Positions 1-45,431 of a stretch of 64,000 nucleotides of DNA are shown here, piece by piece. Made by a program: the position numbers and the translations under genes. Position 1 is the stretch's first letter, and each line of letters starts with the position of its first letter. The notes under the pieces were generated by a model. It was not told where the DNA came from and did not search any database. It saw only the letters and a list, made by a program, of their open reading frames with translations. The DNA is from Bacilli bacterium (GTDB taxonomy: Bacteria; Bacillota_I; Bacilli_A; RF39; UBA660): the NCBI GenBank assembly GCA_017511805.1, contig JAFWJA010000013.1, positions 594-64,593 of the forward strand, in the 5' to 3' direction.

Positions 1-1
1 T

Positions 2-7178: not shown

Positions 7179-7202
7179 AGTATAATTAGATTAGGTGATA
7201 TT

Positions 7203-9830: not shown

Positions 9831-9831
9831 C

Positions 9832-10416: not shown

Positions 10417-10975
10417 ATGAATAAATTAGTTAATTTAATCAGAAATAATAAAACTAAATTTATTCTTTTTGCTATGGCTATATTAATAGCAAGTATTACA
10501 TTAGTAACAGCTTTATTAAGTAGTAATTTAAATATTAATGGTACTGCTTATATTGAAGAAAGTAGTTGGGTTATTTATTTTACTGATGTTAGAAAGAGTA
10601 CTGATTCTGTTGCATCAGATAATGATGCTAGAATAGTTAATTATGAAAAAACTAAAATTGAATTTTCAGCAGACTTACATAGAGGTGGAGACTTTTATGA
10701 GTTTACAGTATATACAGTAAACGATGGATCTATAGATGCGATGGTAGATTCGATAGAAAAGAGTGCTTTAACAGAAGAACAATTAAAATACTTAGAATTT
10801 AATGTTACTTATGATGATGGAAGGCAAATTCAAAGATGTGATCCACTTGATGCTGGAACTAGAAGAAGAGTAAAAGCAATTGTTAAATATAAAGACGGAA
10901 TAGATATGAGTGATTATCCTGATGAAGATGTTCATTTAGATTTATTCTTTAATATAAACTATGTACAAAAAGATA
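10417..10975 (+). other. N-terminal signal-anchor plus approx. 185-aa module shared with the 187-aa and 226-aa proteins (tentatively TasA/camelysin-like)
   Basis: By-eye alignment of three stretches. First, LLSSNLNINGTAYIEESSW versus ALQTQLEINGNTTIDAVGW. Second, GGDFYEFTVYTVNDGSIDAMV versus PGDFYEFTVDIVNAGTIDAKI versus PGQYYAFSVDIKNEGNLDAKV. Third, the C-terminal D..L.L...I.YV[QE][KD]. Confidence 0.75.
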
Positions 10976-13900
10976 ATGCATGTACTCCACAAGATTTTGG
11001 TGATGAACATGTACTTACAATTGTTCCAAATGGAGGTATTTATCAAGGAAGAACAGATGAAATAAGAGTATATCTTGAAGAAGGAGATACTTATACATTT
11101 ACTGAACCAACTAGAGAATTCTATAACTTTACTGGTTGGGAAGGTGATCCTGCTGAAGGAACATATACACTAGAAGATAAAGTATTCACAATGGGTAAAG
11201 AAAATGTTACAATGACTGCTTCTTGGGAAGAAGGAGACTATGTAGCAAGAATAATGAATGTATATTATCCTTCAATTCAATTAGCATTTGATGCGGCTGG
11301 TAATACTTGGGAAGATAATACAGTATATTTATTAAAAGATACTACAGAAGATCCTACAAATAATACTGATGAAAGTTTTGTATTTAATTTAGGTGGACAT
11401 ACAGTTACAGGAACACTTACAAATAGTGTTGATGGTAATTTAACTATAGTAAATGGTAGATTTGAAAATGAAGATGAAAATGAAATAACTGTTAGAAACT
11501 ACGGTATACTTACTATGGGTGTTGATGATGATGATGTACAAGTAGAAAGTAGTATAGCTATTTGTGGTGAAACTATTGGATTACAAAATGAAGCTGGTAG
11601 TGAATTCTATTTCTATGATGGTTACTTACAAGCAGTACATGCTTTAGTAGGTGGATATACTGATAAAGCTGATGGTTACTATGTAATAGTTGATTATAGA
11701 AAATCTATTAACAAAGATAGAGTATACTTAGTTAAGAATAATAACAGAGCAGTTGCTAAAACGACTACTAATGGAGATTTATATTACTATAACTTACAAA
11801 GTGCTATAGAAGAAGTAGAAGGTAATAAAAAAGATAATCCATCTTTAACTGATTCAGATTATATTATAACTGCAATAAGAAGTTTTGAAGCTGCTTATGA
11901 AATAGATGTACATAATAATTCAAGAATATTCTTTGATACTGATGGTTATAATATAGATTTTGGTGAAAACATTACTAACGATGGATACTTTAATATTTAT
12001 AATGGACAAGATAGTATTAGTACATTAAAGATGGCTAAGACTATTGCAAATAACGGTTCATTAATAATTAATAATCTATTATTTGAAGAAACTACTAATT
12101 CAAATATTATTAATAATACTGGTACATTAGCAATAACTAATTCAACGTTACATTCAAAATATGGTAATGCAGTTAATAATAGTGCAAATGGTACTGTTAG
12201 TTTAGATAATAATACATCATTAAAATCTGATGATGGATATGGATTAAATAACTCAGGTTCTAATTTAACAATAGGTGCAGGAACAATATATGGATTTAGT
12301 AATAGTGGTACTGCTACTATAACAGGTGGAAATTATATTACATTTGTTGATAAAACACAAAATGAATATAATACAAGATATACTAATGGTATATATAATA
12401 CTGGAACTATTAATATGAATGGTGGTAGTGTTCAAAATAATATATCTACTAATCCAATTGTTAATAGAGGAACATTTAATTATTATGATGGTGATTTAGA
12501 TTCTAGTACTACATTAATTGAAAACTATTATGGTACAGTTAATATTTTAGATAATGAAATATCTACAACAGGAACTGCAATTAATAATGGTACAGTTAAT
12601 ATTAATGGTGGTGATTTAATATCAGATACTACTACAATTACTGGATCAACTAATGTAACTGTTACATCAGGTGAAGTTAAATCAAATGAAGGAACAGCAA
12701 TTAGTATTTCTGGTTCAGTAAATGTAAATGGTGGTACTGTTACAGGTAAGACACAAGCTATTTCAACTAATAACTTTACTATTAGTTCAGGAACAGTTAC
12801 TAGTGAAGGGGCAGGTGTTAGTGCTAGTTCATCAAATGTATCAGGTGGAACAATCACTTCATCAGGTGTAGGTTTATCAACAACTAATTTAAGTATGACA
12901 GGTGGTACTATTACTTCTACTGATAATACAGGTGTATATGTATCTAATGATGGTACAATTACTGGAGGTAATATTAATGGTGATCTATATGGACTATATA
13001 CAAATAATAAAATTACTTTAGGTAGTAATGATGAAAATATAAGTACAGATAGTCCAGTTATTACTGGTAATAGTTATGGTCTATATATGAATGGAAATGA
13101 CAACAATTTCTATGATGGATTTATTAAAGGTCAAGTAGATAGTTATGAAGGAGAATTTACTGGTTTACCATTAGGAGGATTTGTTGCTAGAGAAGAACAA
13201 ACAATTTCTGATACTAATTATGTAGTAAGTTATGTTTCATTCTATGAAAACTGGTTAAGAGTAGGAGAAAATGAATATAATACAATAGATGCTGCTAGTG
13301 ATGCTATTACTGGAGAATCTGGAACAATAGAAGTTATTAAAGATGCTGAAATTAACTTTGAACAAACATTTAAAGCTAATTCAACAAAAGTAATTACTTT
13401 TGATTTAAATGGTCATAATATTACAACTACTCAAAATATTACAAATAGTAGTTTAGTAAATTTAACTATTACTGATAGTGGTAATGTAGCATTTAATGCT
13501 AAAACAGGTTTTATAAATAATGGAAATGTCACTTTTGAAGGTGGAACTTATACTTCAACTAATCCATATATAGTTACAAATAATAATGTTGTTACAATTG
13601 ATGGAGCAACATTTACAACTAATAGAGATGTTATTAATAATGGTAGTCGTACATTAATAATTAATAGTGGAACTTTAAATGGTTCAACAGTAGTATCAAA
13701 TAGTTATGGTTCAGTTACTATGAATGGCGGTACTATTAATGCTACTAATTATGGTATTATTAACGGTTCATTTGAAATGAATGGCGGTACTATTAATAGT
13801 AATGACTATGGTACAGCATATACAACTGTTCATATAATAGATGGTACGATTCATACTACAAATACTGCAATCTTCTCATATGGTACAAGTACTAATATTG

Positions 13901-16900
13901 AAGGAGGTACTATAACAAGTGATAATAGTACAGCAGTTGATGGAAGAAGATATGTTTCAATTAGCGGTGGTACAATTACAGGTACTATTGGTGTATATCA
14001 TACAACATATTCTGATGGATATTATATATATCAAGATAATATGTCAATTACAGGTGGTACAATTACAGGTACTACTGGTGAAGGTATTATTACATATTGT
14101 GGAACTCTTACATATAGTGATGCTACAACAACTGGTAATACAAATGGTTTAGTAGTAAGTTATGATACAAATAATTATGGAGCAACTGCTGTAATATTAT
14201 TTGGAACTATTAAAGGTAATACAAATGGTATTTTAAATAATGATACTTTAGTATTAGGAACAAATGATGAAACAATATCTAAAACAATACCATTAATTAT
14301 GGGTGGAGATTATGGTGTTTATAATAACGATAATAGAAATGCAACATTTAGATTCTTTGATGGTATTTTAAAAGGTTTAGAAGATGGACATTATGGTTTA
14401 GTTACAGAAATACCTGATGCATCAATGGTAGTAGATGATTATGAATTTATTGATAGAGTAGAATATCAAACTGAATATATAGGTGAACAAGCTGATTGGA
14501 TTAGAGTAGGTACTAGAACATTTAATTCAATTAATAAAGCTGCTGATTATATTGGTGAATCAGGAACTATGTATTTAATGCATGATGTATCTATATCATT
14601 TGATCAAGAATTACCTACTGGTAAAGATATAACATTTGATTTACAAGGTCATAGTTTAATGATGACTAATTCACTAAAAGTAAGTGGAACAGGAACAATA
14701 ATTGATTCAGTTGGTAATGGTGGTATTACTAATATTAAACAAAATGTATTTAATGTTACTGGCAACTTAATAGTTAATTCTGGTACATATACTGCTACTA
14801 ATACAAATACAATTAGTAATTCTGGAACAACTACTATAAATGGTGGAACAATTAGAAGTACTAAAGATGGAGCTCTTGGTATATATACAACAGGAACTAC
14901 TAATGTAACTGGTGGAAGTATTGATGCACCAAGAGGTATAGAAAATAATGGTGGAACACTTAATGTATCAGGTGGTACAGTTAGTGGAACAAATGGTATA
15001 GCTATTACAACAAATGCTACTACAAGTATTTCTGGTAGTGCTTATGTAGTATCTAGTACAACAGATGGTGTATATGTAAGTAATGGAGAAACAACAATTT
15101 CAGGTGGAACAATAAAATCACTTGGAGGAACAGCAATACATCAAAATGATTATTATAATTCAACATTAAATGTAACTGGTGGAGAAATAGAAGGTAATTA
15201 TAATGGTATTACTTCAGGAACAGGTACAACTAATATATCAGGAGGACATATTGTTGGTATAACTAATGTTGGTATAAATGCTGGAGGTACTAATTATATT
15301 ACTGGAGGTACTATTGAAGGAGCAACTTATGGTGTTTATTCAAATGGAACAACAACACTAGGTAATAATGATGGAACTATATCAATAGATGAACCTTCAA
15401 TAAAAGGTGAACTATATGGTTTATATATTTATTCAGGAACAGTTAATTTCTATGATGGTATTTTAAAAGGTATAACTGATGCATATAAAAATGAAATAAC
15501 TAATATACCAGACAGAACTGAGATATTTAATGATGTTGAAAGAATAGATAATTATGATTATAAGACAGCATATTTACTTACTGAATCTGTAATCGCAATT
15601 AATACTACAACAAATGAAGAATATACAAATCTACAAGATGCATTAGATGAAGCAAAAACTGGTGAAACAGTTAAATTACTTGCTAATGTACCTTTATATT
15701 ATGAAGTAATTAATAATAATGATGATCCAATTATATTAGATATGAATGGATTTAGAATTACAACAAATAAGAGAATTATTAATAATAAAAATTTAACAAT
15801 TAAAAATGATGGAGAAAATGATAGTTTCATTAGAACATCATCTGGTATTAATTTAATAACTAATACTGAAACATTAAATGTTTATAATGTTGAAATTATT
15901 AATAATTCATCATCAGTGTATGTAATTAATAATACTGGAACTTTATCACTTACCGAATCAAAAGTAACTGGTATAAATGATATTTCAAGTTCTAATAGTG
16001 TTACTTTAGATCATTCAATTATTAGTTCATCTAACATAGCTATTAATACTAGTGGAAGTTTAAATGTAACAGGTGGAAGTATTTCAGGAAGTTATTATTC
16101 AGTATATGCAAATAATAATAAAACAAATACATTAAGTGAATGTACTATTACTGGAACATATTATAACCAAGGTGGTAATTCAACTACATTTAATTATGTA
16201 ACAATGAATTCAAGTATTCAAAACTATAGTAGTACTATTACTGCTAATGGAAGTGTATTTAACTATAGTATATTAAATGCTGGTACATTTACATTACAAA
16301 ATAATTCAACATTAAATGGTGTTATATCACAAAATAGTGGAACATTAAGTGCTATAAATTCAACTATTAATTCTAGTTCAGATAGAGTAATTTATAACTC
16401 TGGAACAATGAATATAAATAATACAAATGTTAATGTTGATAGAGATTATGGGGATAGTAGAATCTTTAATAATAACGGAACATTAAATATTACAAATGGT
16501 TCAACTATTAGTGGTGGAGCTTCTACTACTGGTGCTAGCTACATGGGTATTTATAGTTATGGTAGTGGTAATGCAACTATAGAAGATTCTAATATTATCT
16601 TAAATAGTAGAAGTAATGTATATGGTGTATATGTTGATTCTACTAATTCACATGTAACTATTAAAACAGGTAATATTGAAGTTACAGGAAGTACATCATA
16701 TGGTGCTTATTTATCCGCAGGTACATTTACAATGGGTGAAGTCGAAGTAGGTGAACATTCTGGTACAGAAGATGCAGATGTTTCACAAACTAATCCAAAA
16801 GTACAATCAATTGGTAGAGCACAAGGTATTGGTGTTAAACATAATAATGCAAACTTTGAATTCTATGATGGTATAGTATGGGGTTCTAAATATTCTAAAC

Positions 16901-19900
16901 CAGATATCACTACATTAGTTGAATTAAACTACGAAGTTACTACTTATGTAGATATGGATAATGGTTATGAATATTCAGTACTTGAATTCATGAAACACGA
17001 TTATCAAGATTCAGTTGCTATATTAAATAATGTTTATTATAGAGATGTACAAAGTGCTATTGATAAATGTGAATCTCCTAATGATGAAATCTTATTATTA
17101 AGATCTACATCAGAAAACACATTAAATATACCAGAAGGTGCAAGTGTTAAGATTAATTTAAATGGTTATTCAATAACAACTAAAGTTACTAACAATGGTA
17201 CATTTAATATATATAATGGATCTCTTCAAAGCTTTGATGAAGTAACAGTTACAAATAATGGTACTTTGATTATAGGTAAAAATGATGGAACTATATCTAG
17301 TACAAATGTCAGAATAATAAGTGAATCAACTGCTATTCAAAATAATGGAACTGTTAAGATGTATGATGGATATATTCAAGGTGTTCCTTCAATTAATGGA
17401 ACTATTGATGAAATACCAAATCTTTCTAGAATTTATACTGAAGTAACAGATCAAATGGAAAGAAAGTACTTACAATCATTAAGTGAAGAAGCAATTATAA
17501 GTGGAGAAACAAAACTTATTATTACAATAGATCCAAATGGTGGTTCATATAATGGTAGTAAAGAGGTACAAGATGTATATGAAAACTATCATGTACCTTA
17601 TACATTATCAACTCCTATTAAAAATGGATGTACATTTATTGGTTGGGAAATAAGTGATCCAAGTGTATTATCTGGAACAGGTACAGAACAAGATCCATAT
17701 GTAATTACATTAGAATTAAGTGATATTACTTTAAAAGCTAAATGGAGTATTAATGATGATGTAGTTGCTCAAATAGGAAATGAATACTATACAACAGTAA
17801 TGTCAGCTATAGAAGATGCAAAAGATAATGATACAATTACAATACTAAAAGACGTTACTGAAGATGTAACAAATAATAAAAATGTAACAATAGATTTAAA
17901 TAATAATACAATCACAGGAGCATTTATTAATAACGGAATATTAAGATTAATAAATGGTGTTATTGAAAATGCAAATGGTACAGGTCTTGTTAATAATAAG
18001 ACATTGACTATGGGTGAAAGAGATGGTGTAGTAGTTACTGATAGTGTTAAGATTATGGGTACTACACTAGGTCTTGAACAAAATGGTTCATTCAATTTCT
18101 ATGATGGTTACATCGAAGGTGATGTAGCTATGTTAGGAAGAACTAATTCAGTTCCAAATGGATATTTCTTATATAATGAAAGAAATGTTATTAAGAATTG
18201 TCAAAGAGTATACTTAATTGGTAATCCTGCTAATGCAGTTGCGGTTATTGAAGAAGGTGGAACTCAATACTTCTTCAGTTTGCAAGATGCTATTAATACA
18301 GCAACAGTTTCTGGTAGTGAAATATTTATAGTAAGAGACTTTGAAGCTACATATACAATAACTGTAGATGAAGGTGCAGATATACTAATTAACATGAATA
18401 GTTATAATATTACAACTGGTAATGATATAACTAATAATGGTACTTTAAAAATATATGATAATTCAGAAAATAAGGGTTCAATTACTAGTGCTAGAACTAT
18501 TACAAATAATGGAACATTAACAATTGAAGATATTAGCATTACAGAATCTAATACAGATAATATCGCAATTAATTCTGTAGCTAATTCTTCACTTAATATT
18601 AAAAATGCTAATATAACAGCTCAAAATGGTTATGCAGTTAAGTCTTTAGGTAATTTAAAACTTGAAGGTGATTATAATCTAGATTCAAATGATTATGCAT
18701 TATATGCTGGTGGTACTACTGAAGATATTACAACTGGTAATATAGCAGGTATGGAATTATATTCAGATTTAAATATTGGTGGTACAGTAAACGTAATATC
18801 TAAAACCGCAGCAATTGCTATAAGACAACCAGTAAATTTAACTATAGATGGTGGTTATTATAAAACAATAAATAGTAATTCAGGTATCTATAATGAAGGT
18901 GGTTCATCTACTATAACTATGAATTCTGGAACTATTGAGGCATACTATGGATTCTCATGTAGTTCAGGAACAACTACTTATACATTGAATGGTGGAACAA
19001 TAACTGCTAGTGATCAAGGTGCTAGAATGTATTCTGATAACTGTAATTTAACAGTTAACGATGGATCTATAACAGGTACTAATTATGGTGTTTATACATA
19101 TGGTCAATCTAATAAAATAAATATTAATGGTGGAACAATTACTGCTACTAGTTATGATGGTATTAGAGATGATAGAAGTAAAAATACAACTAGTTCTGAT
19201 GGTGAATATCCATATTTCTCAAAAATCAATGTATTAGGTGGAACAGTTACAGGTGCAAGATATGGTATTTATGAAATATATTCTAGAACAACTATTGGAA
19301 ATGCAGAAGTAAAAACAACATCAACTAGTAATAGTTATTATGCTATATATAATGGTGATTGGTCTAACTTATATATTAATGATGGAGCATTTGTTAATGC
19401 ACCATATGCATGTGGTATATATTGTTCAGGTGGTGTTGATATTCTTGGTGGAAGAGTAGTAACTGGACATAATAATGGATATGGAATCTACAGTAATTTT
19501 ATGGGATTAAATATGAGTGGTGGTTCTATTGAAGCAACAGGTAATAGCTCATATGGTATTTATTCTAATTCAAATTACTTTAAGATGAATATGACAGGTG
19601 GATCTATTACATCAAAGAATATAGGTGTTGCATTAGTAAATAGTGGAAACTACACAAGAGAATTTACTATGACAGGTGGATCTATTCAAGGTGATACTTA
19701 TGGTGTATATCAAACACAAAACTTTACAACAACTATAGGTAATGCTGAAGATGAGTTATCCACAACAATTCCTTATATAACAGGTGGTTTATATGGATAC
19801 TATAAAACAGCAGGAACTGCATATTTCTATAATGGTAGATTAAGAGGTCTAACATATGGATATAATGATATATTCAATAATATAAGAACAAAGATGGATA

Positions 19901-31900: not shown

Positions 31901-33594
31901 TTCATAATGATTCATATGCATATAGCAATATATTTGCTGAATTAAATAATTTAAAGATTAGAACTATAAAGAAAAAATCTGAAAGAGAATATAGTCCAAG
32001 TTCTATAAATAATGGTGTAAGTACAACATTATTTATAAATAATAGTACATTAGATATAGAAAATGTTAACTTTGATGTATATAACCTAGTTGAAGGAACA
32101 AGTAATTCAGTATTAACAATTGATGGTTCAACTATTAAAGGAGATAATAAAGCAATTAATAGTTCAGGTGATATAACTGTAACTAATTCAAGTATTGTTT
32201 CTCCATATGGTATAGATTCTAAGAAAGACTTGGTATTAAGTAATTCATCAATTAGATCTACAAATCAAGGTATAATTAATTCTGGAACAATGACTATTAC
32301 TAATTCATCAGTTTCAGGAACATCATATGGTATATATGTTAATTCTTCTGGAAATAGTACAGTTACAAATTCAGTTATTAAATCTACATCAGTATCTGTT
32401 TATAAACAAGGTTCTGGATCAATAGATTTAACAAATGATACTATGACTGGTAGTGTTCAAAATAGTGGAGCATCAAGTACATTAACTGTTACTGGTGGAA
32501 GTATAACTGGTCAAATATCTAACTCAGGTACATCAACATATTCTAAAGTACCAATTACTTATACAAGCAATTATTACAATGCAGAAAACTTAATTAATAA
32601 CTCAGGTATATTAAACATGAATGAATCAGAAGTTACATTTAATAGTACTTATGCATCAGGTTCAAGTTATAGAACTAGTGCTCTATATAATACAGGAACT
32701 GTTGATTCATATAAGACTAAATATAATGTATTCCATACAAATGGTTATTATAAATGGATGATAGGTATTAATAATAGTGGTTTATTAACATCTAATAGAG
32801 ACTCAATTGAGATAACAGGAGCAGGTGCTTCATATGCAATCTTAAATGATACAAGCAATGATTGTACTATAACTAATATCAATATTAATTCTCATGATAA
32901 TGGTAGTGAAATATATGGTATTAGAAACTTAAGAGGTAAGATTAATCTTAATGGTGGTTCTGTTTCAATGAACAATAATACATTTACTCATGGTCTATAT
33001 ACTAGTGGTACAAGTAATACTATTGTTACAGATACAGTATTTACATTAACTAATAACTCTAATAACAGTAAAGCAATTTACATGCAAGATGATGGAGGTA
33101 CTGTTACAGTAGTAAGAGGTACATTTAGTGCAAGTGCTACTGGTGAAGCAGATGCTATATATATGGATAATGGTACATTAAATATTCAAGATGGTATATT
33201 TAACGCTAACTCTACTAGTGGAACAGCATATGGATTAAAGATGTCTAATGGTACTGCTACTATAGAAAAAGGAACTGTTAGTGCACATGGTACAAATGCT
33301 TATGGTATTTATATGACTAGAGGTACTTATACTCAAGGTATTCCAGATAATTCAGGATATGAAACAGCTGATGTATCAATTACTGATCCTCATATTGAGG
33401 CTATTGGTACAACAGAAGGTACTGGAATAAGTATGGGTTCAGGTTCATTCAATTTCTATGATGGTATTATTATAGGTTCAACTAGATCAAGAGTTGCGGG
33501 TGACATAGTAACTAATACAGATACAAACTTTCAAGTTAAGACAGATATAGATGAGAACAACTATAGTTACTCTATACTAGAATTTATAAAGTAG
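10417..33594 (+). CDS. Giant exported modular protein (7,725 aa): SipW-type signal-anchor and TasA-like module, Flg_new repeats, about 11 beta-helix-like modules, nine glycine-rich (ALK/LTK-GRD-like) domains, no C-terminal wall anchor
   Basis: Single uninterrupted ORF of 23,178 nt with an RBS aaaggtg upstream. Strong internal repeat structure. Ten F/Y-Y-D/N-G-x-[ILV]-x-G module caps at approx. 13108, 14353, 15448, 16861, 17359, 18097, 19825, 22144, 24468 and 33454. Nine W-G-A-[QS]-G motifs. Confidence 0.9.
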   Translation: MNKLVNLIRNNKTKFILFAMAILIASITLVTALLSSNLNINGTAYIEESSWVIYFTDVRKSTDSVASDNDARIVNYEKTKIEFSADLHRGGDFYEFTVYTVNDGSIDAMVDSIEKSALTEEQLKYLEFNVTYDDGRQIQRCDPLDAGTRRRVKAIVKYKDGIDMSDYPDEDVHLDLFFNINYVQKDNACTPQDFGDEHVLTIVPNGGIYQGRTDEIRVYLEEGDTYTFTEPTREFYNFTGWEGDPAEGTYTLEDKVFTMGKENVTMTASWEEGDYVARIMNVYYPSIQLAFDAAGNTWEDNTVYLLKDTTEDPTNNTDESFVFNLGGHTVTGTLTNSVDGNLTIVNGRFENEDENEITVRNYGILTMGVDDDDVQVESSIAICGETIGLQNEAGSEFYFYDGYLQAVHALVGGYTDKADGYYVIVDYRKSINKDRVYLVKNNNRAVAKTTTNGDLYYYNLQSAIEEVEGNKKDNPSLTDSDYIITAIRSFEAAYEIDVHNNSRIFFDTDGYNIDFGENITNDGYFNIYNGQDSISTLKMAKTIANNGSLIINNLLFEETTNSNIINNTGTLAITNSTLHSKYGNAVNNSANGTVSLDNNTSLKSDDGYGLNNSGSNLTIGAGTIYGFSNSGTATITGGNYITFVDKTQNEYNTRYTNGIYNTGTINMNGGSVQNNISTNPIVNRGTFNYYDGDLDSSTTLIENYYGTVNILDNEISTTGTAINNGTVNINGGDLISDTTTITGSTNVTVTSGEVKSNEGTAISISGSVNVNGGTVTGKTQAISTNNFTISSGTVTSEGAGVSASSSNVSGGTITSSGVGLSTTNLSMTGGTITSTDNTGVYVSNDGTITGGNINGDLYGLYTNNKITLGSNDENISTDSPVITGNSYGLYMNGNDNNFYDGFIKGQVDSYEGEFTGLPLGGFVAREEQTISDTNYVVSYVSFYENWLRVGENEYNTIDAASDAITGESGTIEVIKDAEINFEQTFKANSTKVITFDLNGHNITTTQNITNSSLVNLTITDSGNVAFNAKTGFINNGNVTFEGGTYTSTNPYIVTNNNVVTIDGATFTTNRDVINNGSRTLIINSGTLNGSTVVSNSYGSVTMNGGTINATNYGIINGSFEMNGGTINSNDYGTAYTTVHIIDGTIHTTNTAIFSYGTSTNIEGGTITSDNSTAVDGRRYVSISGGTITGTIGVYHTTYSDGYYIYQDNMSITGGTITGTTGEGIITYCGTLTYSDATTTGNTNGLVVSYDTNNYGATAVILFGTIKGNTNGILNNDTLVLGTNDETISKTIPLIMGGDYGVYNNDNRNATFRFFDGILKGLEDGHYGLVTEIPDASMVVDDYEFIDRVEYQTEYIGEQADWIRVGTRTFNSINKAADYIGESGTMYLMHDVSISFDQELPTGKDITFDLQGHSLMMTNSLKVSGTGTIIDSVGNGGITNIKQNVFNVTGNLIVNSGTYTATNTNTISNSGTTTINGGTIRSTKDGALGIYTTGTTNVTGGSIDAPRGIENNGGTLNVSGGTVSGTNGIAITTNATTSISGSAYVVSSTTDGVYVSNGETTISGGTIKSLGGTAIHQNDYYNSTLNVTGGEIEGNYNGITSGTGTTNISGGHIVGITNVGINAGGTNYITGGTIEGATYGVYSNGTTTLGNNDGTISIDEPSIKGELYGLYIYSGTVNFYDGILKGITDAYKNEITNIPDRTEIFNDVERIDNYDYKTAYLLTESVIAINTTTNEEYTNLQDALDEAKTGETVKLLANVPLYYEVINNNDDPIILDMNGFRITTNKRIINNKNLTIKNDGENDSFIRTSSGINLITNTETLNVYNVEIINNSSSVYVINNTGTLSLTESKVTGINDISSSNSVTLDHSIISSSNIAINTSGSLNVTGGSISGSYYSVYANNNKTNTLSECTITGTYYNQGGNSTTFNYVTMNSSIQNYSSTITANGSVFNYSILNAGTFTLQNNSTLNGVISQNSGTLSAINSTINSSSDRVIYNSGTMNINNTNVNVDRDYGDSRIFNNNGTLNITNGSTISGGASTTGASYMGIYSYGSGNATIEDSNIILNSRSNVYGVYVDSTNSHVTIKTGNIEVTGSTSYGAYLSAGTFTMGEVEVGEHSGTEDADVSQTNPKVQSIGRAQGIGVKHNNANFEFYDGIVWGSKYSKPDITTLVELNYEVTTYVDMDNGYEYSVLEFMKHDYQDSVAILNNVYYRDVQSAIDKCESPNDEILLLRSTSENTLNIPEGASVKINLNGYSITTKVTNNGTFNIYNGSLQSFDEVTVTNNGTLIIGKNDGTISSTNVRIISESTAIQNNGTVKMYDGYIQGVPSINGTIDEIPNLSRIYTEVTDQMERKYLQSLSEEAIISGETKLIITIDPNGGSYNGSKEVQDVYENYHVPYTLSTPIKNGCTFIGWEISDPSVLSGTGTEQDPYVITLELSDITLKAKWSINDDVVAQIGNEYYTTVMSAIEDAKDNDTITILKDVTEDVTNNKNVTIDLNNNTITGAFINNGILRLINGVIENANGTGLVNNKTLTMGERDGVVVTDSVKIMGTTLGLEQNGSFNFYDGYIEGDVAMLGRTNSVPNGYFLYNERNVIKNCQRVYLIGNPANAVAVIEEGGTQYFFSLQDAINTATVSGSEIFIVRDFEATYTITVDEGADILINMNSYNITTGNDITNNGTLKIYDNSENKGSITSARTITNNGTLTIEDISITESNTDNIAINSVANSSLNIKNANITAQNGYAVKSLGNLKLEGDYNLDSNDYALYAGGTTEDITTGNIAGMELYSDLNIGGTVNVISKTAAIAIRQPVNLTIDGGYYKTINSNSGIYNEGGSSTITMNSGTIEAYYGFSCSSGTTTYTLNGGTITASDQGARMYSDNCNLTVNDGSITGTNYGVYTYGQSNKININGGTITATSYDGIRDDRSKNTTSSDGEYPYFSKINVLGGTVTGARYGIYEIYSRTTIGNAEVKTTSTSNSYYAIYNGDWSNLYINDGAFVNAPYACGIYCSGGVDILGGRVVTGHNNGYGIYSNFMGLNMSGGSIEATGNSSYGIYSNSNYFKMNMTGGSITSKNIGVALVNSGNYTREFTMTGGSIQGDTYGVYQTQNFTTTIGNAEDELSTTIPYITGGLYGYYKTAGTAYFYNGRLRGLTYGYNDIFNNIRTKMDIAEVTETSDIDQNIKTYSVSEYSSTPESNTPKAGAGYAKITYLDDSGSVYTQNQQFDYPYMGSEDTFIPLDSGRYSIEVWGAQGGTYDSTYYGGYGGYSYGEIELSAGETLYINVGGQGSYTGSIVDGGYNGGGSGRYRGGSGGGATSIATASGLLSELENNKASILIVAGGGGGGAYTNSANGSAGGSGGGFEGADSIINARGDNVPNGFGKGGTQDHAGCASNSKNYCGAFGQGGTSTMDTSYYGSGGGGGGYYGGGTGYYDGGAGGSGYNGNSRLTNKVMYGYSVPMTNDVWINNYLVERAGFIEVNGETFNSFDDASEYIIDNLNGVGTMNIVKDATVQEVSTISGTTITLDLQGHVLTTTKTINNEADLTVEDGSTLKTGKIEDNKDNAFTNKGSITLDGVYVKSTGYNVINGSTGTGSIVLKNGSTLEGARGILLNAAQSVTMSDTTIIATTDAIRSDAAATVTINSGTITSSDVGIRLQTDNNTLTINDITLTGTNYGVYNYGQSSVITINDGTITANNYDGVRDDRSKSTTTSNNEHIYFSKININGGTVTAGRYAVYDIYSYVNVSNAELKSTSTSYAVYNYDWGIFSLNDGAFINSPNGDGVFLNSSIYIHDGSRIYAGHTSAYGIGGYYINVVMDGGSIETPGSNAYGIRDTQYECNINISGGSITSGNIGVGLNNSGNYTRQFTMTGGSIQGDTYGVYQTQNYATTIGSEEAELSTTIPYITGGLYGYYKTAGTSNFYNGRLRGSTFGYNDEFNNIRTKKTIVTEYESGTIDSTLTYSTDQVSEYPISNYAKAENGYVKLTYLGETVGTCTNNQVYEFDYTGEEETFTVECPGDYKIETWGAQGGSYSETYRGGYGAYSTGTISLVLDEVLYINVGEQGYHCEVNSGRCEGTYNGGGVAIAGNQDSSTGGGATSIALSSGTLYELGQNSLQSDVIIVAAGGGGTGQTGYGGEGGGLLGSSGTASNLDYNHLYGGTGASQTTGGTRESGGLCGSSGLNSTGQFGLGGASADSSCGGSGGGGGYYGGGGSLRQHNGAGGGSSYIGHSRLSDAVMYGYKVQSSAGVWVNNYLGDMEGFLQVGSEVFNSFEDANAYIVENLSGTGTINVIKDATITESITFPESTNITVDLKGHKLITSNTIINNSSLVIQDTVGNGVIHNKKGDTIQNNLNLTVDGAKLKTSADAVIWAKTGTGVLLIKGNSVLEGSRAIVLDSAQKLTVSDTYMHTTSDAIRSNVANANITINSGTNIDAGDLGIRLQNSGNTLVVNGGTIKGTNYGIYSYGATNTITINDGIITGTNNDGIREDYTSSGGTLSVLGGTVTGGRYGIYCYGELLTVENAEVKTTSANRDHYAIYTSWGTTHINDGAFINAPDASGIWAEDDLYIEAGSRIFAGNRSAYGIAERWSNTFVINGGTIETPGYNAMGIYSYDNLVNLTMNSGTITSGHIGLYLNTSSNYTRVVNIYGGSISGETYGIYQPQNYTTTIGDNESELSTTVPYITGGLYGIYNTAGTVNLYSGRLRGQTYGYYNAINDIREEKVIKEEIEGNEDIGVTSTYSVNTSSSTATAKIPKAGAGYVRITYLDETNATYTQNQTFEYSYLGSEETFTPLVTGNYSLEVWGAQGGSINSSYLGGYGGYSYGEIELTANETLYINVGGQGSYGSSSIPGGYNGGGIGTGGYCNGTRYAASGGGATHIATSSGVLSSLENDKSSILIVAGGGGGSSSYGAYGSGGSGGGFKGANGQFTLSGHSYSQYATGGTQTSGGIFGNSYALQKNVVSGSFGQGGNLDTRSCSEGSGGGGGYYGGGSALFGTGGGGSGYIGSSRLTNKAMYGYSVPITYGSWINNYLSDPKQTILNVEQDVTYSNLQTALDEVEDGETLQLLDDISITYDLETQENINFTLDMNGYNLDTTKQITNNSNMKIINSTVDSTEEEEIVVETSESIYYYNGTKYNNLYTENTYQVDQATFETNYIDLPNDGSGYYIVYTDTIDLSQYNTIIVKKTNFVGTRAKFAENPNLVGNVGDTISPTWQNISGDIYAADISSYNDGNKKFYIDADSGENAGYVYYIAFSSKTLSEVTEDSSFVDNPTVTYSKAFNYTGNEQVFTAPEDGVYKLESWGASGGDAIWSDSVRYPGGYGGYSTGTISLHKGDKLYINVGGAGTDDCREDCDGGYNGGGIASGSDGAGYGAIYVITAGSGGGATSIATETGLLEDLESKKSSIVLVSGGGGGSLIHRYENAENWWQGYGGSAGGFESTAGAIPVAGRSISPTVATQTTPGTGYSQSSYYGQGSFGKGQDGNLHKDVANCAGAGGGYYGGGASGYTSTSGGSSYINTSVLNNAYMMCYNCTESNTTETKTISTTNTASTPTSEYANEGDGYVLITSINAKENNDQTFNYTGSEEEFTVPVSGIYKLETWGAQGGAAICNNGDCESTPGYGGYAVGEIYLSQGTKLYINVGGKGGKGTLNACSTGGYNGGGTGTNDGGSCGSTEDNEASGGGGGATSIATTSGLLSTLENNKNSILIVSGGGGGASYNYDSGSGGGAFGGITSTTNQTEVSQTTGYAFGQGQNATGAGDSDGVGGGGGGYYGGYSNNVSFKSAGSGGSGYIGNSRLNTKHMACYDCDISSESSSKTISVTDVSETPVANYAKIGDGAAKISFVRTTSTVEFDYTGDVQQFVAPETAKYKIEAWGAQGGSTDLNSGGKGAYTSGIIDLNKDDVIYVYVGATPGDDSRSVAAYNGGGLSSGEPEYSSGGGGATDIRLVSGTWNDQSSLASRIMVAGAGGGAYTYELSNFKFDGGAAGGLEGATGEYSNTCASTGGTQTSGGTCSSNNSTAGSFGQGGNSVGGRASGGGSGYYGGAARYDAPGSGSGAGGGSSYISGYRGSIAITSGSDLTPKTGCTSGTNDIECSYHYSGKIFTNSKMIDGASTMPTHDGTSTMVGNSGDGYAKITKVEASPITEFDYTGDVQEYTVPATGTYKIEAWGAQGASQTDTNGGAYTSGTITLTKDTKLYIYVGEKGNYTRTATFNGGGVGGLSNESNPDDLGNSGGGATDIRLVKGTTWDDSSSLASRIMVAGGSGGGADSLYETAGEYSIAGGLTGGSGGYYSGHSYVGQNGQGGTQTAGGAAGVNHYSASGTNTSGSFGQGGSSQSTSAYKGSGGGGGGYYGGGAGGSTMSGGAGQGGGGGSSYISGYKGSVAITSEQDLTPKSGCSDGTTNVECSYHYSGNVFKNAIMKDGASTMPTHDGTSTMVGNSGDGYVKITFIENDPVTEYGYTGTAQEFTAKKTGKYKIEAWGAQGSSRPDNRSGGPGAYTSGILDLNQGDTLYVYVGGTGASEKNNGAGNTIPYGEYAFNGASGGNYTCYSYNNTTAYNNYGGGATDIRLVSGNWDDSTSLASRIMVAAGGAAANENADGVPGGALTGYDGIHGTGGTQTSAGGPRSGSFGKAGIPVYGGYRCNGSIASGAGSGYYGGGAYDQDRDNNGMGSAGSGSSYISGYKGSVAITSASDTSPKTGCTNGTTDVTCSYHYSGKVFTNTSMRDGASSMPTHDGEGTMTGNEGDGFVKITYIEEKEEVRPVDFDYTGSEQVFTAPKTGTYKLETWGAQGGGPGTINNKVALGGYGGYSTGEITLNAGDTLYINVGGKGTYGRSDPQTGGYNGGGNVSNRHGDSNEVRASGGGATSIATSTGTLYELGQNSKQGDVVIVAGGGGGSHLNSVSSSYSYGGSGGGFIGGGSSGVGDGTYNLNNGGTQLEVGSSSTSWGVSDYGDFGKGASASQNGAGAGGGYYGGGVGVRGSGGGSGYIDTSVLANAKMVMYQTDQGYKSTEPETYTDITSDVNEEAVSDNAKSGDGFARITYVPDNGENITEEVISVTTVTNFTYDSVLNNQYDEMVVSNGKLISTVANSGNASVTYYNNPIRVTTTKVNNMTIMGSIDYYNNKDDNSLGTLYVGLSKTNSNNIDFDYYDEYEIDSTTAKTIDFEFTPDEVGDYYFKIILVHNDSYAYSNIFAELNNLKIRTIKKKSEREYSPSSINNGVSTTLFINNSTLDIENVNFDVYNLVEGTSNSVLTIDGSTIKGDNKAINSSGDITVTNSSIVSPYGIDSKKDLVLSNSSIRSTNQGIINSGTMTITNSSVSGTSYGIYVNSSGNSTVTNSVIKSTSVSVYKQGSGSIDLTNDTMTGSVQNSGASSTLTVTGGSITGQISNSGTSTYSKVPITYTSNYYNAENLINNSGILNMNESEVTFNSTYASGSSYRTSALYNTGTVDSYKTKYNVFHTNGYYKWMIGINNSGLLTSNRDSIEITGAGASYAILNDTSNDCTITNININSHDNGSEIYGIRNLRGKINLNGGSVSMNNNTFTHGLYTSGTSNTIVTDTVFTLTNNSNNSKAIYMQDDGGTVTVVRGTFSASATGEADAIYMDNGTLNIQDGIFNANSTSGTAYGLKMSNGTATIEKGTVSAHGTNAYGIYMTRGTYTQGIPDNSGYETADVSITDPHIEAIGTTEGTGISMGSGSFNFYDGIIIGSTRSRVAGDIVTNTDTNFQVKTDIDENNYSYSILEFIK
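20055..20810 (+). repeat. Glycine-rich domain copy 1 (WGAQGG type)
   Basis: YSIEVWGAQGG (tgg at 20137)...LYINVGGQG...GGGATSIA...ILIVAGGGGGGA...GSGGGGGGYYGGGTGYYDGGAGGSGY. Confidence 0.8.
22375..23150 (+). repeat. Glycine-rich domain copy 2
   Basis: YKIETWGAQGG (tgg at 22453)...LYINVGEQG...GGGATSIA...IIVAAGGGGTG...GGSGGGGGYYGGGG. Confidence 0.8.
24700..25470 (+). repeat. Glycine-rich domain copy 3
   Basis: YSLEVWGAQGG (tgg at 24781)...LYINVGGQG...GGGATHIA...ILIVAGGGGGS...GSGGGGGYYGGGS. Confidence 0.8.
26200..31490 (+). repeat. Back-to-back array of six glycine-rich domains (copies 4-9)
   Basis: W-G-A-[QS]-G codons start at 26275, 27169, 27988, 28867, 29800 and 30718, a spacing of 819-933 nt. 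Each unit begins F[DN]YTG..[QE].F..P..G.YK[IL]E.WGA and ends G[DE]G[YFA].[KRL]I[TS]. Confidence 0.85.
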
Positions 33595-34397: not shown

Positions 34398-34405
34398 GTG
34401 ATATT

Positions 34406-45364: not shown

Positions 45365-45377
45365 TATAGATTATAAC

Positions 45378-45400: not shown

Positions 45401-45431
45401 ATGAATACTTGTAGTTTACATGGAGGTTTAA

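What the first reader, a model, noticed from the sequence alone, without database searches (positions are those of the whole stretch)
10417..33594. Uninterrupted 23.2-kb ORF encoding a 7,725-aa modular protein
One ORF takes up 36% of the window. After the N-module the architecture is as follows. A Flg_new repeat lies at approx. 11000-11235. Next come six beta-helix-like modules with GG[TS]I[TN]-type approx. 20-aa periodicity, each opening with a ...Y.[ST][IL]..A.D.A....TI.L[LI]KD-type segment and closing with F/Y-Y-D/N-G-x-[ILV]-x-G; a second Flg_new repeat (approx. 17515-17750) lies between the fifth and sixth. Three beta-helix+GRD super-repeats follow, then a truncated module, an unassigned domain, six GRDs, a second unassigned domain, and a final beta-helix module. 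The GGxI periodicity recalls polymorphic-membrane-protein-type repeats of parallel beta-helix adhesins. The size, the reiterated near-identical segments and the absence of stop codons make this both a biological curiosity and an assembly-quality question.
Basis: seen in the sequence. Interest (0 to 1): 0.65.

Follow-up and report, generated by a model that had tools for sequence, protein, structure and literature searches.

The report
Giant fibre-borne surface protein gene
A real, conserved 7,725-residue surface protein of an uncultured ruminant-gut bacterium, built from beta-helix rods and nine ALK-type glycine-rich domains, starts with a small domain shared with neighbouring pilin-like genes and sits in a dedicated signal-peptidase cassette, so it is most likely the giant adhesive subunit of a TasA/AbpX-like fibre.

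Summary
The ORF at 10417-33594 (7,725 aa) is real. Five full-length orthologues (5,453-6,572 aa) are collinear with it, and unitigs from independent gut metagenomes tile it without a mismatch at single-copy depth. The repeats are old (at most 79% nt identity, longest exact repeat 43 nt), not near-identical.

Architecture: leader, Flg_new, six beta-helix modules, Flg_new, one module, three module+GRD super-repeats, then a terminal module split by a lineage-specific 2,085-aa insertion (X1, six GRDs, X2). A module model (pLDDT 95.8) is a right-handed beta-helix. The GRDs are true ALK/LTK-type domains.

Two small neighbouring proteins and about 6,000 protein clusters share this leader. In 15 loci it lies in a cassette of small subunit, multi-TM Ser-His signal peptidase I (TIGR02228), DUF5305 protein and large cargo. 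That is the layout of AbpX/Tafi/TasA donor-strand fibre loci. Profile similarity to AbpX is modest (E 7e-5 to 4e-4) but in register.

Best reading: a fibre-borne giant adhesin. Polymerisation and expression are untested.

The parts
8685..9830 (+). SipW-A: dedicated ER/archaeal-type (Ser-His) signal peptidase I with a polytopic N-terminal membrane domain (about 8 predicted TM helices) and a C-terminal catalytic domain
   Evidence: TIGR02228 at 92 bits (cut-off 51.85), plus a SipW model hit and Pfam S26/S24 hits. The SGSMSP, VVHRI and TKGDHN motifs are conserved in the window copy and in 14 orthologues. TM helices are from a hydropathy scan.
9817..10395 (+). DUF5305-like accessory protein A (192 aa, 2 TM helices)
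   Evidence: Pfam DUF5305 at 43.9 bits (cut-off 29), E 2.4e-11. Two TM segments. Always follows the peptidase gene in 15 related loci.
10417..33594 (+). Giant ORF, 7,725 aa
10417..10518 (+). aa 1-34: N-terminal TM/signal segment. Cleavage is predicted after V-T-A34, by register with AbpX (LTYA|QW...).
   Evidence: Helix 12-34 in the model. Hydropathy. Alignment to AbpX.
10519..10566 (+). aa 35-50: conserved segment LLSSNLNINGTAYIEE, the candidate donor strand (hydrophobic residues at mature positions 2, 6 and 8)
   Evidence: L38, I40 and G42 are nearly invariant in the family. The segment has low pLDDT and no secondary structure in the monomer model. Same register as the AbpX donor strand W2/L6/L8.
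10567..11001 (+). aa 51-195: acidic beta-sandwich core of the leader domain (motif PGDFYEFTV..VNDGSIDA)
   Evidence: Core pLDDT about 95. 36-37% identical to the two small proteins. pI 4.45, 19.9% Asp+Glu.
11008..11235 (+). Flg_new (Listeria-Bacteroides) repeat 1
   Evidence: Flg_new_2 at 27.0 bits (cut-off 23.6); TIGR02543 at 23.5 bits (cut-off 20.95)
11233..17514 (+). Six beta-helix modules (a, m1-m4, b). Each has a conserved N-cap, a variable number of coils and a C-cap ending F/Y-Y-D-G-x-[ILV].
   Evidence: Alignment A3, domain map, model of m3 (nt 14482-15582) with pLDDT 95.8, Foldseek neighbours mostly beta-helices
17515..17754 (+). Flg_new repeat 2
   Evidence: Pfam Flg_new at 20.9 bits, below the cut-off of 27. 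37% identical to repeat 1 over about 100 aa.
17752..18234 (+). Minimal beta-helix module c (caps only)
18235..25452 (+). Three super-repeats, each a beta-helix module plus one ALK/LTK-type glycine-rich domain (m5+GRD1, m6+GRD2, m7+GRD3)
   Evidence: 50-71% aa and 65-70% nt identity between copies. PF12810. Domain map.
25474..25710 (+).
   Evidence: Contiguous with the terminal body in orthologues P0052, P0054 and P0056
25711..31959 (+). Lineage-specific nested insertion of about 2,085 aa: X1 (nt 25717-26202, unassigned), GRD4-GRD9 (nt 26200-31521) and X2 (nt 31507-31992, unassigned)
   Evidence: Absent at this point in the orthologues. Both junctions are spanned by single unitigs. PF12810 total score 920 bits, 8 stretches reported. 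GRD profile hits the ALK, SCD-2 and LTK structures. X1 and X2 have no Pfam, NCBIfam or mutual similarity.
31960..33591 (+). Body and C-cap of the terminal beta-helix module. Ends ...YSYSILEFIK, with no LPXTG motif and no C-terminal TM segment.
   Evidence: 53% identical to the C-terminus of P0052. The C-terminal motif is conserved in the orthologues. No LPXTG motif.
33603..35170 (+). Two tandem paralogous single-pass membrane proteins (264 and 254 aa), function unknown. Found otherwise only in the giant-bearing locus L001.
35204..35755 (+). DUF5305-like paralogue B (183 aa)
   Evidence: Homologous to the 9817-10395 protein
35784..36347 (+). Small leader-only protein (187 aa): candidate major fibre subunit
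   Evidence: 37% identical to giant aa 1-195. pI 4.05. A subunit of this size lies just upstream of the peptidase gene in 12 of the 15 cassette loci.
36417..37097 (+). Second small leader protein (226 aa), with a 45-aa Pro/Glu/Thr-rich linker between the strand segment and the core: candidate minor or adaptor subunit
37106..38272 (+). SipW-B: paralogue of the polytopic peptidase that has lost the Ser, His and GDxN motifs (probable pseudo-peptidase)
   Evidence: Weak TIGR02228 hit at 33 bits, below cut-off. Alignment with 15 active-looking homologues.

Best explanation
The gene encodes a giant exported surface protein. It is the large 'cargo' or tip-type subunit of a TasA-superfamily (AbpX/Tafi-like) fibre system in an uncultured, low-GC gut bacterium of ruminants.

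Proposed mechanism:
1. The N-terminal TM signal targets the protein to the Sec translocon. (Inferred.)
2. The neighbouring multi-TM Ser-His signal peptidase I, helped by the DUF5305 protein, cleaves it around Ala34. (Inferred from the register with AbpX and from the conserved cassette.)
3. Cleavage frees a conserved amphipathic strand (LLSSNLNING...). This strand inserts into the acidic beta-sandwich of a neighbouring leader domain. The same domain makes up the two small proteins encoded downstream, so the giant is held non-covalently on, or at the end of, a fibre of small subunits. (Inferred, not tested.)
4. The remaining 7,500 residues form a passenger. About 4,400 residues are right-handed beta-helix rod; at roughly 28 residues and 0.48 nm per coil that gives a rough estimate of 75 nm. 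The rod is interspersed with two Flg_new repeats, nine ALK/LTK-type glycine-rich domains and two unassigned domains, which present binding surfaces far from the cell.

Shown here: the ORF is real and conserved; the module is a beta-helix by a confident model; the GRDs are genuine; the leader is shared with the small proteins; the cassette is conserved; the peptidase keeps its catalytic motifs.

Inferred: the cleavage site, the donor-strand attachment, the adhesive role and the ligand.
For: Reality and conservation:
- The ORF statistics are given.
- Orthologues are collinear over 3,300-5,300 aa at 40-55% identity and share the same C-terminal ending.
- Unitigs from independent samples tile the ORF with 0 mismatches. 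Unique pieces have 1x depth and the 32-43-nt connectors have 2x depth.

Leader domain:
- It is 36-37% identical to the two small proteins.
- The family has 6,030 cluster representatives at E<=1e-3, and 298 genomic stretches were confirmed, with labels of uncultured gut Bacilli/Firmicutes bins among the 80 listed.

Cassette:
- The order small subunit, peptidase, DUF5305, large leader protein occurs in 15 of 79 loci. All four giant-bearing loci (window, L001-L003) have it.
- The peptidase hits TIGR02228 above cut-off, keeps its Ser/His/GDxN motifs and has about 8 TM helices.
- The DUF5305 hit is above the Pfam cut-off.

Literature:
- Exactly this gene set defines AbpX-like and Tafi donor-strand fibre loci: a dedicated SPase I with many TM helices, DUF5305, minor subunits and variable tip proteins (bioRxiv 10.64898/2026.01.04.697558; PMC11821415; PMC12337348).

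Similarity to AbpX:
- hhalign aligns the domains end to end at E 7e-5 (63% probability) and E 4.3e-4 (34%). Twenty shuffles reach at best E 0.061.
- The cleavage site, the donor strand and the PG..FT..N.G.I.A motif are in register.
- The strand segment is conserved but unstructured in the monomer model, as reported for AbpX.
- pI is 4.05-4.64 and Asp+Glu is 16-20%.

Anchoring:
- There is no LPXTG motif or C-terminal TM segment, so the only possible attachment is N-terminal.
Against: - Homology of the leader to the TasA superfamily is only modestly supported. Probabilities are 34-63%. There is no Pfam Peptidase_M73 or other family hit and no PDB hit with the profile.
- Foldseek gives no match at E<=1e-3. 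The TasA fibre ranks 16th (E 0.056, TMq 0.28), and AbpX (9sj2/9rhp) is not in the top 50.
- Only 15 of 79 leader-gene loci lie next to a peptidase gene. The leader could therefore be a general anchor rather than a fibre subunit.
- The family has Leu, not the 'Trp clamp', at mature position 2.
- No multimer modelling, proteomic data or usable RNA data are available. The only 'RNA' run is labelled GENOMIC and is thin and even.
- The key comparison paper is a preprint.
Confidence: 0.55

Rival explanations
1. The giant is a membrane-tethered adhesin. The N-terminal helix is an uncleaved signal anchor, the leader beta-sandwich is only a membrane-proximal stalk shared by many surface proteins of this lineage, and the peptidase cassette serves other substrates.
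For: The leader is found on thousands of proteins with unrelated cargo, many per genome, and most of those genes are not next to a peptidase gene. The 226-aa paralogue tolerates a 45-aa linker after the TM-proximal segment. Structural similarity to pilins is not significant.
Against: Leader-only proteins of about 190 aa, with no cargo, are conserved right next to the peptidase gene. That makes little sense for a mere anchor. The segment after the helix is nearly invariant and matches the AbpX cleavage and donor-strand register. The giant gene directly follows the peptidase and DUF5305 genes in two of the four giant-bearing genomes (window, L002); L003, whose contig begins in the DUF5305 gene, shows the same adjacency, and in L001 two small membrane-protein genes lie between.
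Confidence: 0.25
2. The protein is a secreted or matrix-embedded multi-enzyme. On this reading the beta-helix modules are polysaccharide-active catalysts (epimerase, lyase or hydrolase), and the GRDs and Flg_new repeats act as spacers or binding modules for plant or mucin glycans in the gut.
For: The best structural neighbours include the alginate C5-epimerases AlgG and AlgE4, phage tailspike depolymerases and pectate-lyase-like proteins. The habitat is the ruminant gut. A Cthe_2159-type beta-helix carbohydrate-binding protein is encoded nearby.
Against: No glycoside hydrolase, lyase or epimerase family is detected in any module at E<=1. Foldseek E-values are weak (0.04 or worse) and equally include non-enzymatic adhesins such as pertactin, Vag8, UpaB and Ag43. 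The conserved positions are in the caps, not in a groove-like active site.
Confidence: 0.12
3. The ORF is an assembly artefact, caused by mis-joined or miscounted repeats, or it is a silent gene remnant.
For: Short-word unitigs break at nine points between 19.7 and 30.4 kb, where paralogues share 31-43-nt words. The order of pieces there is not independently proven. No long reads were found and there is no expression evidence.
Against: Mismatches and gaps are zero in at least two independent samples, and depth is even. In the 28.4-30.6 kb stretch examined in detail, unique pieces have 1x depth and shared connectors exactly 2x. Repeats are at most 79% identical. An open frame of 7,725 codons has a chance probability of about 1e-308. 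Five full-length orthologues have the same grammar.
Confidence: 0.03

Closest known systems
AbpX-like fibre loci of the TasA superfamily (Pyrodictium abyssi AbpX and bacterial homologues in Bacillota and Chloroflexota; bioRxiv 10.64898/2026.01.04.697558)
   Same: The gene set matches: small acidic subunits with a long signal and an amphipathic N-terminal strand, a dedicated SPase I (TIGR02228) with many TM helices, a DUF5305 accessory protein with 2 TM helices, minor subunits, and a variable 'tip' protein sharing the subunit domain. The profile alignment is in register.
   Different: Sequence similarity is marginal. Position 2 of the putative mature strand is Leu, not Trp. The leader family is far larger (about 6,000 clusters) and carries very diverse cargo. 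The cargo here is 7,500 aa, much larger than the tip proteins mentioned in the passages read. No SLH or LPXTG anchor gene is seen in the locus.
Haloarchaeal Tat-fimbriae (Tafi: TafA-G; PMC11821415, PMC12337348)
   Same: A dedicated signal peptidase (TafD) is paired with a DUF5305 protein (TafG), and such pairs can be duplicated. There are small pilins, plus larger subunits (TafC, TafF) whose N-terminal domain resembles the pilins. Assembly by donor-strand exchange is proposed for Haloarcula Tafi from AlphaFold models (PMC11821415) and shown in the PNAS 2025 structure of the Natrinema pilus.
   Different: Tafi are archaeal and mostly Tat-dependent, and TafD has 4 TM helices with an N-terminal catalytic domain. 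Here the system is bacterial and Sec-type, and the catalytic domain is C-terminal after about 8 TM helices.
Bacillus subtilis tapA-sipW-tasA operon
   Same: The operon logic is the same: a dedicated SipW-type Ser-His peptidase is encoded among its substrates, and one substrate is a major fibre subunit assembled by donor-strand exchange (PMC9674648, listed; the analogy is stated).
   Different: SipW is about 190 aa and is not fused to a multi-TM N-terminal membrane domain like the one here, and there is no DUF5305 partner. No Pfam family was detected in the leader or in the family members scanned. TapA and TasA are about 250 aa.
ALK/LTK glycine-rich domain (Pfam PF12810; structures 7LIR, 7LRZ, 7NWZ, 7NX0)
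   Same: All nine GRDs match the Pfam model. Their profile hits the solved ectodomains over about 220 columns.
   Different: In animals the domain is a single cytokine-binding unit of a receptor kinase. Here nine copies are strung along a bacterial surface protein, six of them in tandem. The ligand is unknown.
Giant beta-helix adhesins of diderm bacteria (pertactin, Ag43, FHA, chlamydial Pmps)
   Same: They share the right-handed parallel beta-helix rod as the main structural element.
   Different: There is no autotransporter barrel, no TPS domain and no Pmp repeat signature. Related loci come from bins labelled Bacilli or Firmicutes. The beta-helix here is broken into capped modules with their own conserved N- and C-caps. 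That module type has no Pfam or NCBIfam model.

Membership tests
TasA superfamily / AbpX-like donor-strand fibre system | Dedicated ER/archaeal-type signal peptidase I (TIGR02228) with an unusually large number of TM helices, encoded in the locus | tested here: met
   TIGR02228 at 92 bits vs a cut-off of 51.85. Ser, His and GDxN motifs kept. About 8 TM helices by a crude hydropathy scan, against ten reported for the family.
TasA superfamily / AbpX-like donor-strand fibre system | DUF5305 accessory protein encoded next to the peptidase | tested here: met
   Pfam DUF5305 at 43.9 bits vs a cut-off of 29. 2 TM helices. Adjacent in 15 loci.
TasA superfamily / AbpX-like donor-strand fibre system | Small subunits (about 150-220 aa) and larger 'tip/minor' proteins sharing one subunit domain in the same locus | tested here: met
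   Proteins of 187 and 226 aa are 36-37% identical to giant aa 1-195. The cassette is conserved.
TasA superfamily / AbpX-like donor-strand fibre system | Detectable sequence homology of the subunit to TasA, AbpX or other superfamily members | tested here: inconclusive
   hhalign to AbpX gives E 7e-5 at 63% and E 4.3e-4 at 34%, with shuffles at E 0.061 or worse. No Pfam family such as Peptidase_M73 and no PDB hit with the profile.
TasA superfamily / AbpX-like donor-strand fibre system | Jelly-roll core structurally similar to TasA or AbpX | tested here: inconclusive
   The model is confident (core pLDDT about 95), but Foldseek finds no match at E<=1e-3. TasA 8aur_A ranks 16th (E 0.056), and AbpX is not in the top 50.
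TasA superfamily / AbpX-like donor-strand fibre system | Conserved amphipathic N-terminal strand after the cleavage site, unstructured in the monomer; acidic subunit (pI about 4, about 15% Asp+Glu) | tested here: met
   The consensus GYA|xLSxTLNIxG is in register with AbpX TYA|QWSETLSL. pLDDT is about 60 for residues 35-50. pI 4.05-4.64 and Asp+Glu 16-20%. Position 2 is Leu, not an aromatic residue.
TasA superfamily / AbpX-like donor-strand fibre system | Polymerisation by donor-strand complementation | not testable with these tools
ALK/LTK glycine-rich domain (PF12810) | Match to the curated model above its gathering score | tested here: met
   920 bits over 8 stretches in the C-terminal half. 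GRD1 alone scores 112 bits vs a cut-off of 24.5. Nine copies by own HMM and by WGAQGG/GGGATxI motifs. Profile hits ALK, SCD-2 and LTK chains at E 1e-9 to 5e-4.
Chlamydial polymorphic membrane protein / autotransporter adhesins | Pmp repeat signature (Pfam Chlam_PMP) and a C-terminal autotransporter barrel | tested here: not met
   No such Pfam hit in any of ten pieces at E<=1. The C-terminus is a beta-helix cap conserved in the orthologues.
Right-handed parallel beta-helix (pectate-lyase-like fold) | Three-stranded coils stacked into a right-handed helix | tested here: met
   The AlphaFold2 model has pLDDT 95.8 and pTM 0.90 and is all short strands. Most of the top 50 Foldseek neighbours are right-handed beta-helix proteins, the rest mostly other beta-solenoids (SufB/SufD), with TMq up to 0.46 but E 0.04 or worse. 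This is fold class only, not a family assignment.
Sortase-anchored LPXTG surface proteins (MSCRAMM type) | C-terminal LPXTG motif followed by a TM segment | tested here: not met
   No LPxT[GANS] motif anywhere in the protein, and the protein ends ...ILEFIK. The same holds for five orthologues.
Listeria-Bacteroides repeat (Flg_new) | Match to Pfam or TIGRFAM repeat models | tested here: met
   Copy 1: Flg_new_2 at 27.0 bits (cut-off 23.6) and TIGR02543 at 23.5 bits (cut-off 20.95). Copy 2 is below cut-off but homologous to copy 1.

The most novel reading that the evidence does not exclude
The leader domain is a general, sortase-independent 'plug'. After cleavage by the multi-TM peptidase/DUF5305 machine, dozens of different cargo proteins per genome dock by donor-strand exchange onto a common TasA-like fibre. 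These cargo proteins range from 200-aa binding modules to 7,700-aa giants. This would give these small-genome gut Bacilli a modular, non-covalent surface-display system, and the giant would be its extreme cargo. The roughly 6,000-cluster leader family would then be a large unrecognised bacterial branch of the TasA superfamily.
Probability: 0.3. Interest if true: 0.8.

Novelty: new variant of a known kind. Interest (0 to 1): 0.55.

Why it matters
If the reading is right, donor-strand (TasA/AbpX/Tafi-type) fibres are not only matrix scaffolds. In a widespread, uncultured group of gut bacteria they would also carry enormous adhesins, an arrangement known so far mainly from chaperone-usher and sortase pili.

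The finding gives a concrete, testable function to three things that have none at present:
- a leader-domain family with thousands of members;
- the multi-TM signal peptidase and DUF5305 pair in bacteria;
- bacterial ALK-type glycine-rich domains.

It also defines a capped beta-helix module that has no database model. It documents how such giants grow: here by a 2,085-aa block nested into a loop of the last module.

Practically, it shows that this 23-kb ORF in a metagenome bin can be trusted for annotation.

Tried and rejected
- Whole-protein Pfam scan of the first 4,000 aa returned nothing. This was a bias-correction effect, and piecewise scans recovered the GRD and Flg_new hits.
- Whole-protein self-BLAST returned only the identity hit. 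It was replaced by window-wise BLAST.
- The homology search with the C-terminal 706 aa was swamped by low-complexity words and gave 3 hits. The search with the minimal module gave 23 unnamed fragments. No relative carries a name.
- Exact look-up of the peptidase protein found no encoding contig.
- Single-sequence searches of a GRD and of a beta-helix module against PDB sequences gave nothing. Only the nine-copy GRD profile worked.
- NCBIfam has no model for any piece of the giant.
- X1 and X2 are not similar to each other or to any family.
- A TasA-like fold for the leader could not be shown by Foldseek.
- Pmp/autotransporter reading rejected. LPXTG anchoring rejected.
- No Nanopore run was found.
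- The one 'RNA' run is labelled GENOMIC and covers the giant and the housekeeping genes alike, thinly. It gives no expression evidence.
- The many 'joints' listed by read laying have 20-25-nt sides or come from paralogue cross-mapping. They are not structural variants.
- Literature searches for giant proteins in RF39-type Bacilli or for SipW systems in these lineages found nothing specific.
Full report
1. THE OBSERVATION

A single ORF runs from 10417 to 33594 on the + strand. It has an ATG start, a TAA stop, 7,725 codons and an AAAGGTG ribosome-binding site 8 nt upstream. The window has about 25% GC. With the ORF's own base composition a stop codon is expected every 11 codons or so. The chance of 7,725 open codons is about 1e-308, and the other five frames carry 391-1,210 stops. 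GC rises to 34-40% between 20 and 31 kb. This is the glycine-rich part of the protein; Gly makes up 14.9% of all residues.

2. REPEATS AND ASSEMBLY

They are not.
- The best internal DNA match is 79% over 350 nt.
- The three super-repeats are 65-70% identical over 1.3-2.2 kb.
- The longest exact repeat is 43 nt.
- At protein level the copies are 25-71% identical.

All sampled 31-mers of a 4-kb stretch are held by at least ten gut-metagenome runs. X1, X7 and X10 have identical contig sets and must be one data set. X2, X3 and X5 differ in contig breaks and depth.

Their unitigs tile 9000-38400 with 0 mismatches and 0 gaps. Breaks occur only between 19.7 and 30.4 kb, where paralogues share words of 31 nt or more. 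In the stretch laid in detail (28.4-30.6 kb), the deep runs show unique pieces at 1x (250 and 180) and the 32-43-nt connectors at exactly 2x. Depth across the rest of the ORF is even. Nothing is collapsed or extra. What remains unproven is the order of pieces across those two-copy connectors, and no long-read run was found.

Strains about 99% identical occur in goat, bovine and sheep gut metagenomes.

3. ORTHOLOGUES

Three genomes of the species-representative set carry collinear ORFs that run off the fetched DNA. They are open for more than 2,800 to more than 3,500 codons at 43-46% identity.

The exhaustive profile search returned full-length relatives of 5,453, 5,469, 5,896, 6,386 and 6,572 aa. 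They are collinear with the window protein over 3,300-5,300 aa at 40-55% identity. Four of the five end with the same ...ILE[FY]xx motif (the fifth ends ...VLKFNM), and none has an LPXTG motif. The window's protein is the largest seen.

4. ARCHITECTURE

HMMs built from the window's own domains give this grammar. L is the leader, F is Flg_new, [and ] are the N- and C-caps of a beta-helix module, and G is a GRD.

WINDOW = L F []x6 F [] []G []G []G [ X1 G G G G G G X2 ]

All giants share L F x6 F G. The rest varies, with 3-5 GRDs in the orthologues against 9 here.

Each module has three parts:
- a conserved N-cap of about 65 aa (...Y.S.Q.A.D.....TI..L.KD......I.LDLNG..IT);
- a variable number of coils;
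- a conserved C-cap of about 100 aa ending ...G.YG.Y...G..NFYDG.L.G.

Three modules are caps only. There are therefore seven complete modules before the super-repeats, not six.

In P0052, P0054 and P0056 the N-cap of the last module continues directly into its body. In P0052, for example, residues 5712-5817 match window 4994-5098 and residues 5820-6386 match window 7182-7725. In the window, 2,085 aa lie between these two parts: X1, six GRDs and X2 (nt 25711-31959). The 'truncated' and 'final' modules are thus one module with a nested, lineage-specific insertion. Single unitigs span both junctions.

5. DOMAIN IDENTITIES

Beta-helix module. The AlphaFold2 model of aa 1356-1722, built with the twelve internal paralogues as alignment, has pLDDT 95.8 and pTM 0.90. 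Most of its Foldseek neighbours are right-handed parallel beta-helices, including AlgG, AlgE4, pertactin, Vag8, UpaB, Ag43 and phage tailspikes; the rest are mostly other beta-solenoids such as SufB/SufD. TMq reaches 0.46, but no E-value is at or below 1e-3. The fold class is supported but no family. Pfam and NCBIfam have no model for the module, and there is no Pmp or autotransporter signature.

GRDs. PF12810 scores 920 bits in the C-terminal half. GRD1 alone scores 112 bits. A profile of the nine copies hits the solved ALK, SCD-2 and LTK ectodomains at E 1e-9 to 5e-4.

Flg_new. Copy 1 passes the curated cut-offs. Copy 2 does not, but it is homologous to copy 1.

X1 and X2 remain unassigned.

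6. THE LEADER AND ITS CASSETTE

Residues 1-195 are 36-37% identical to two small proteins encoded downstream, at 35784-36347 (187 aa) and 36417-37097 (226 aa).

The model (pLDDT 86, core about 95) shows a TM helix at 12-34, an unstructured but conserved segment at 35-50 and a seven-stranded beta-sandwich.

The family has 6,030 cluster representatives at E<=1e-3. There are 298 confirmed stretches in species-representative genomes; the 80 listed come from uncultured gut and rumen bins, most labelled Bacilli or Firmicutes (for example Clostridium sp. CAG:417) and a few carrying other, probably mis-binned labels, often with many per genome. Cargo behind the leader is usually 110-1,350 aa.

In 15 of 79 loci the order is conserved: small leader protein (about 190 aa), peptidase (about 395 aa), DUF5305-like protein, large leader protein. 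All four giant-bearing loci have this cassette.

The peptidase matches TIGR02228 above cut-off. It keeps the Ser (G-S/T-x-S-M-x-P), His (VHR) and TKGDxN motifs in the window copy and in 14 orthologues. About 8 predicted TM helices precede its catalytic domain.

The next gene is DUF5305 above the Pfam cut-off, with two TM helices.

The window holds a second copy of the set: a DUF5305-like gene at 35204-35755 and a peptidase paralogue at 37106-38272. That peptidase has lost all three catalytic motifs.

7. COMPARISON WITH WHAT IS KNOWN

DUF5305 appears in only four held papers, and all are on archaeal or cross-domain TasA-like fibres.

In Haloarcula Tafi, TafD (signal peptidase I) is needed to process the pilin TafA. 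TafG (DUF5305) is proposed to assist it. Larger subunits share the pilin domain.

The AbpX preprint describes bacterial and archaeal loci with a major subunit, AbpX-like minor subunits and variable tip proteins. These loci also have a dedicated SPase I with ten TM helices and a DUF5305 accessory protein with two TM helices. It lists the subunit hallmarks: a long signal, an amphipathic N-terminal donor strand that is unstructured in monomer predictions, a jelly-roll core, and pI about 4 with about 15% Asp+Glu.

The printed AbpX sequence is cleaved at LTYA|QWSETLSLSATISTG and buries W2, L6, L8, A10 and I12. The leader consensus is GYA|xLSxTLNIxG, and the giant reads VTA|LLSSNLNING. This gives hydrophobic residues at positions 2, 6 and 8 in the same register, with S3, T5 and L6 identical in the consensus.

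hhalign aligns the two domains end to end. With the 22-sequence profile it gives E 7e-5 at 63% probability. With a 167-sequence profile it gives E 4.3e-4 at 34%. Twenty shuffled AbpX sequences reach at best E 0.061 and 0.9%.

The leader domains have pI 4.05-4.64 and 16-20% Asp+Glu.

Against this:
- there is no Pfam or PDB sequence hit;
- there is no significant Foldseek match, with TasA 8aur ranking 16th at E 0.056;
- position 2 is Leu rather than an aromatic residue.

8. MECHANISM

I take the locus to be a bacterial AbpX/Tafi/TasA-type fibre system. The 187-aa protein is the likely major subunit. The 226-aa protein, with its 45-aa Pro/Glu/Thr linker, is a likely minor or adaptor subunit. The giant is the tip-type or decorating cargo.

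The giant has no C-terminal anchor, so its only attachment can be N-terminal. Leader-only proteins conserved next to the peptidase gene make sense only if the domain itself assembles.

The passenger is 57% beta-helix module (4,428 aa). The m3 model has about 13 coils in 367 aa. At 0.48 nm rise per coil (established geometry of beta-helices), this gives roughly 75 nm of rod, plus the GRDs. This is an estimate.

Not shown: the cleavage site, the strand exchange, the ligand and expression. The only 'RNA' run is labelled GENOMIC and covers all genes thinly.

The rivals are an uncleaved membrane anchor (0.25), a polysaccharide-active multi-enzyme (0.12) and an artefact (0.03).

9. NOVELTY AND SCORE

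Giant adhesins, beta-helix rods, GRDs and TasA-like fibre loci are each known. New here:
- their combination;
- the size of the cargo;
- the capped module type, which has no database model;
- the very large unannotated leader family in gut Bacilli;
- the documented nested insertion.

I rate it a new variant of a known kind, with interest 0.55.

Noticed in passing
window 37106-38272: The second polytopic signal-peptidase paralogue (SipW-B) has lost the catalytic Ser, the VHR His and the TKGDxN motif. All 15 other homologues keep them. It is possibly a pseudo-peptidase that still binds leader peptides, for example as an anchor or chaperone.
   Followed up: partly
window 1-2584: The ORF listed as 302-2584 is open up to the first base of the window, so the gene is cut by the window edge. 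Its product has Flg_new repeats, one minimal beta-helix module of the same capped type (closing YSLYDGMIKG) and a C-terminal Y_phosphatase3 (tyrosine phosphatase family) domain. This looks like a surface or secreted phosphatase built from the same parts.
   Followed up: partly
whole window (36 ORFs of at least 150 aa): No ORF ends in TGA (TAA 29, TAG 7). With table 11 all genes read through cleanly, so TGA seems simply unused here. I did not test whether it is unassigned or recoded in this lineage.
   Followed up: no
window 33603-35170; L001 8318-9839: Two tandem paralogous single-pass membrane proteins (264 and 254 aa) have no family hit. Among the 79 related loci they occur only in giant-bearing locus L001. 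They may be accessory factors specific to the giant.
   Followed up: partly
window 36417-37097: The 226-aa leader protein carries a 45-aa Pro/Glu/Thr-rich insertion between the conserved strand segment and the beta-sandwich core. This would lengthen the tether if the strand is a donor strand.
   Followed up: no
window 4033-7152: A 1,039-aa protein has a different signal anchor and three Flg_new repeats. It also has an internally duplicated N-terminal domain of about 300 aa with a Cys-containing motif (FDPVNYE.CDE...C..W.V.SKN) and a weak DUF7435 hit.
   Followed up: no
window 7203-8549, 49931-52625: Three Mur-ligase genes are present (a MurF-like gene, a gene with a MurD-like N-terminal domain and a further Mur ligase). 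The organism therefore makes peptidoglycan, although it resembles wall-less relatives in GC content and gene density.
   Followed up: no
window 45288-47167: A tRNA-Met gene is followed directly by genes with a YlxM-like HTH (weak) and a BRO-N domain. This may be the edge of an integrated mobile element or prophage remnant.
   Followed up: no
window 57266-58498 and 54340-56611: A Cthe_2159-family beta-helix carbohydrate-binding protein (250 bits) is encoded here. Nearby is a RelA/SpoT-type small alarmone synthetase gene overlapping a VTC-domain gene.
   Followed up: no
L038 5180-8078 (Clostridium sp. CAG:417 scaffold): Five leader-only genes of 181-192 aa lie in tandem directly upstream of the peptidase gene. 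This looks like an expanded set of fibre subunits in that genome.
   Followed up: no
runs X1, X7, X10 (studies P1, P2, P3): Three runs filed under three different studies give identical unitig sets and nearly identical depths across the locus. They appear to be one data set deposited repeatedly.
   Followed up: partly
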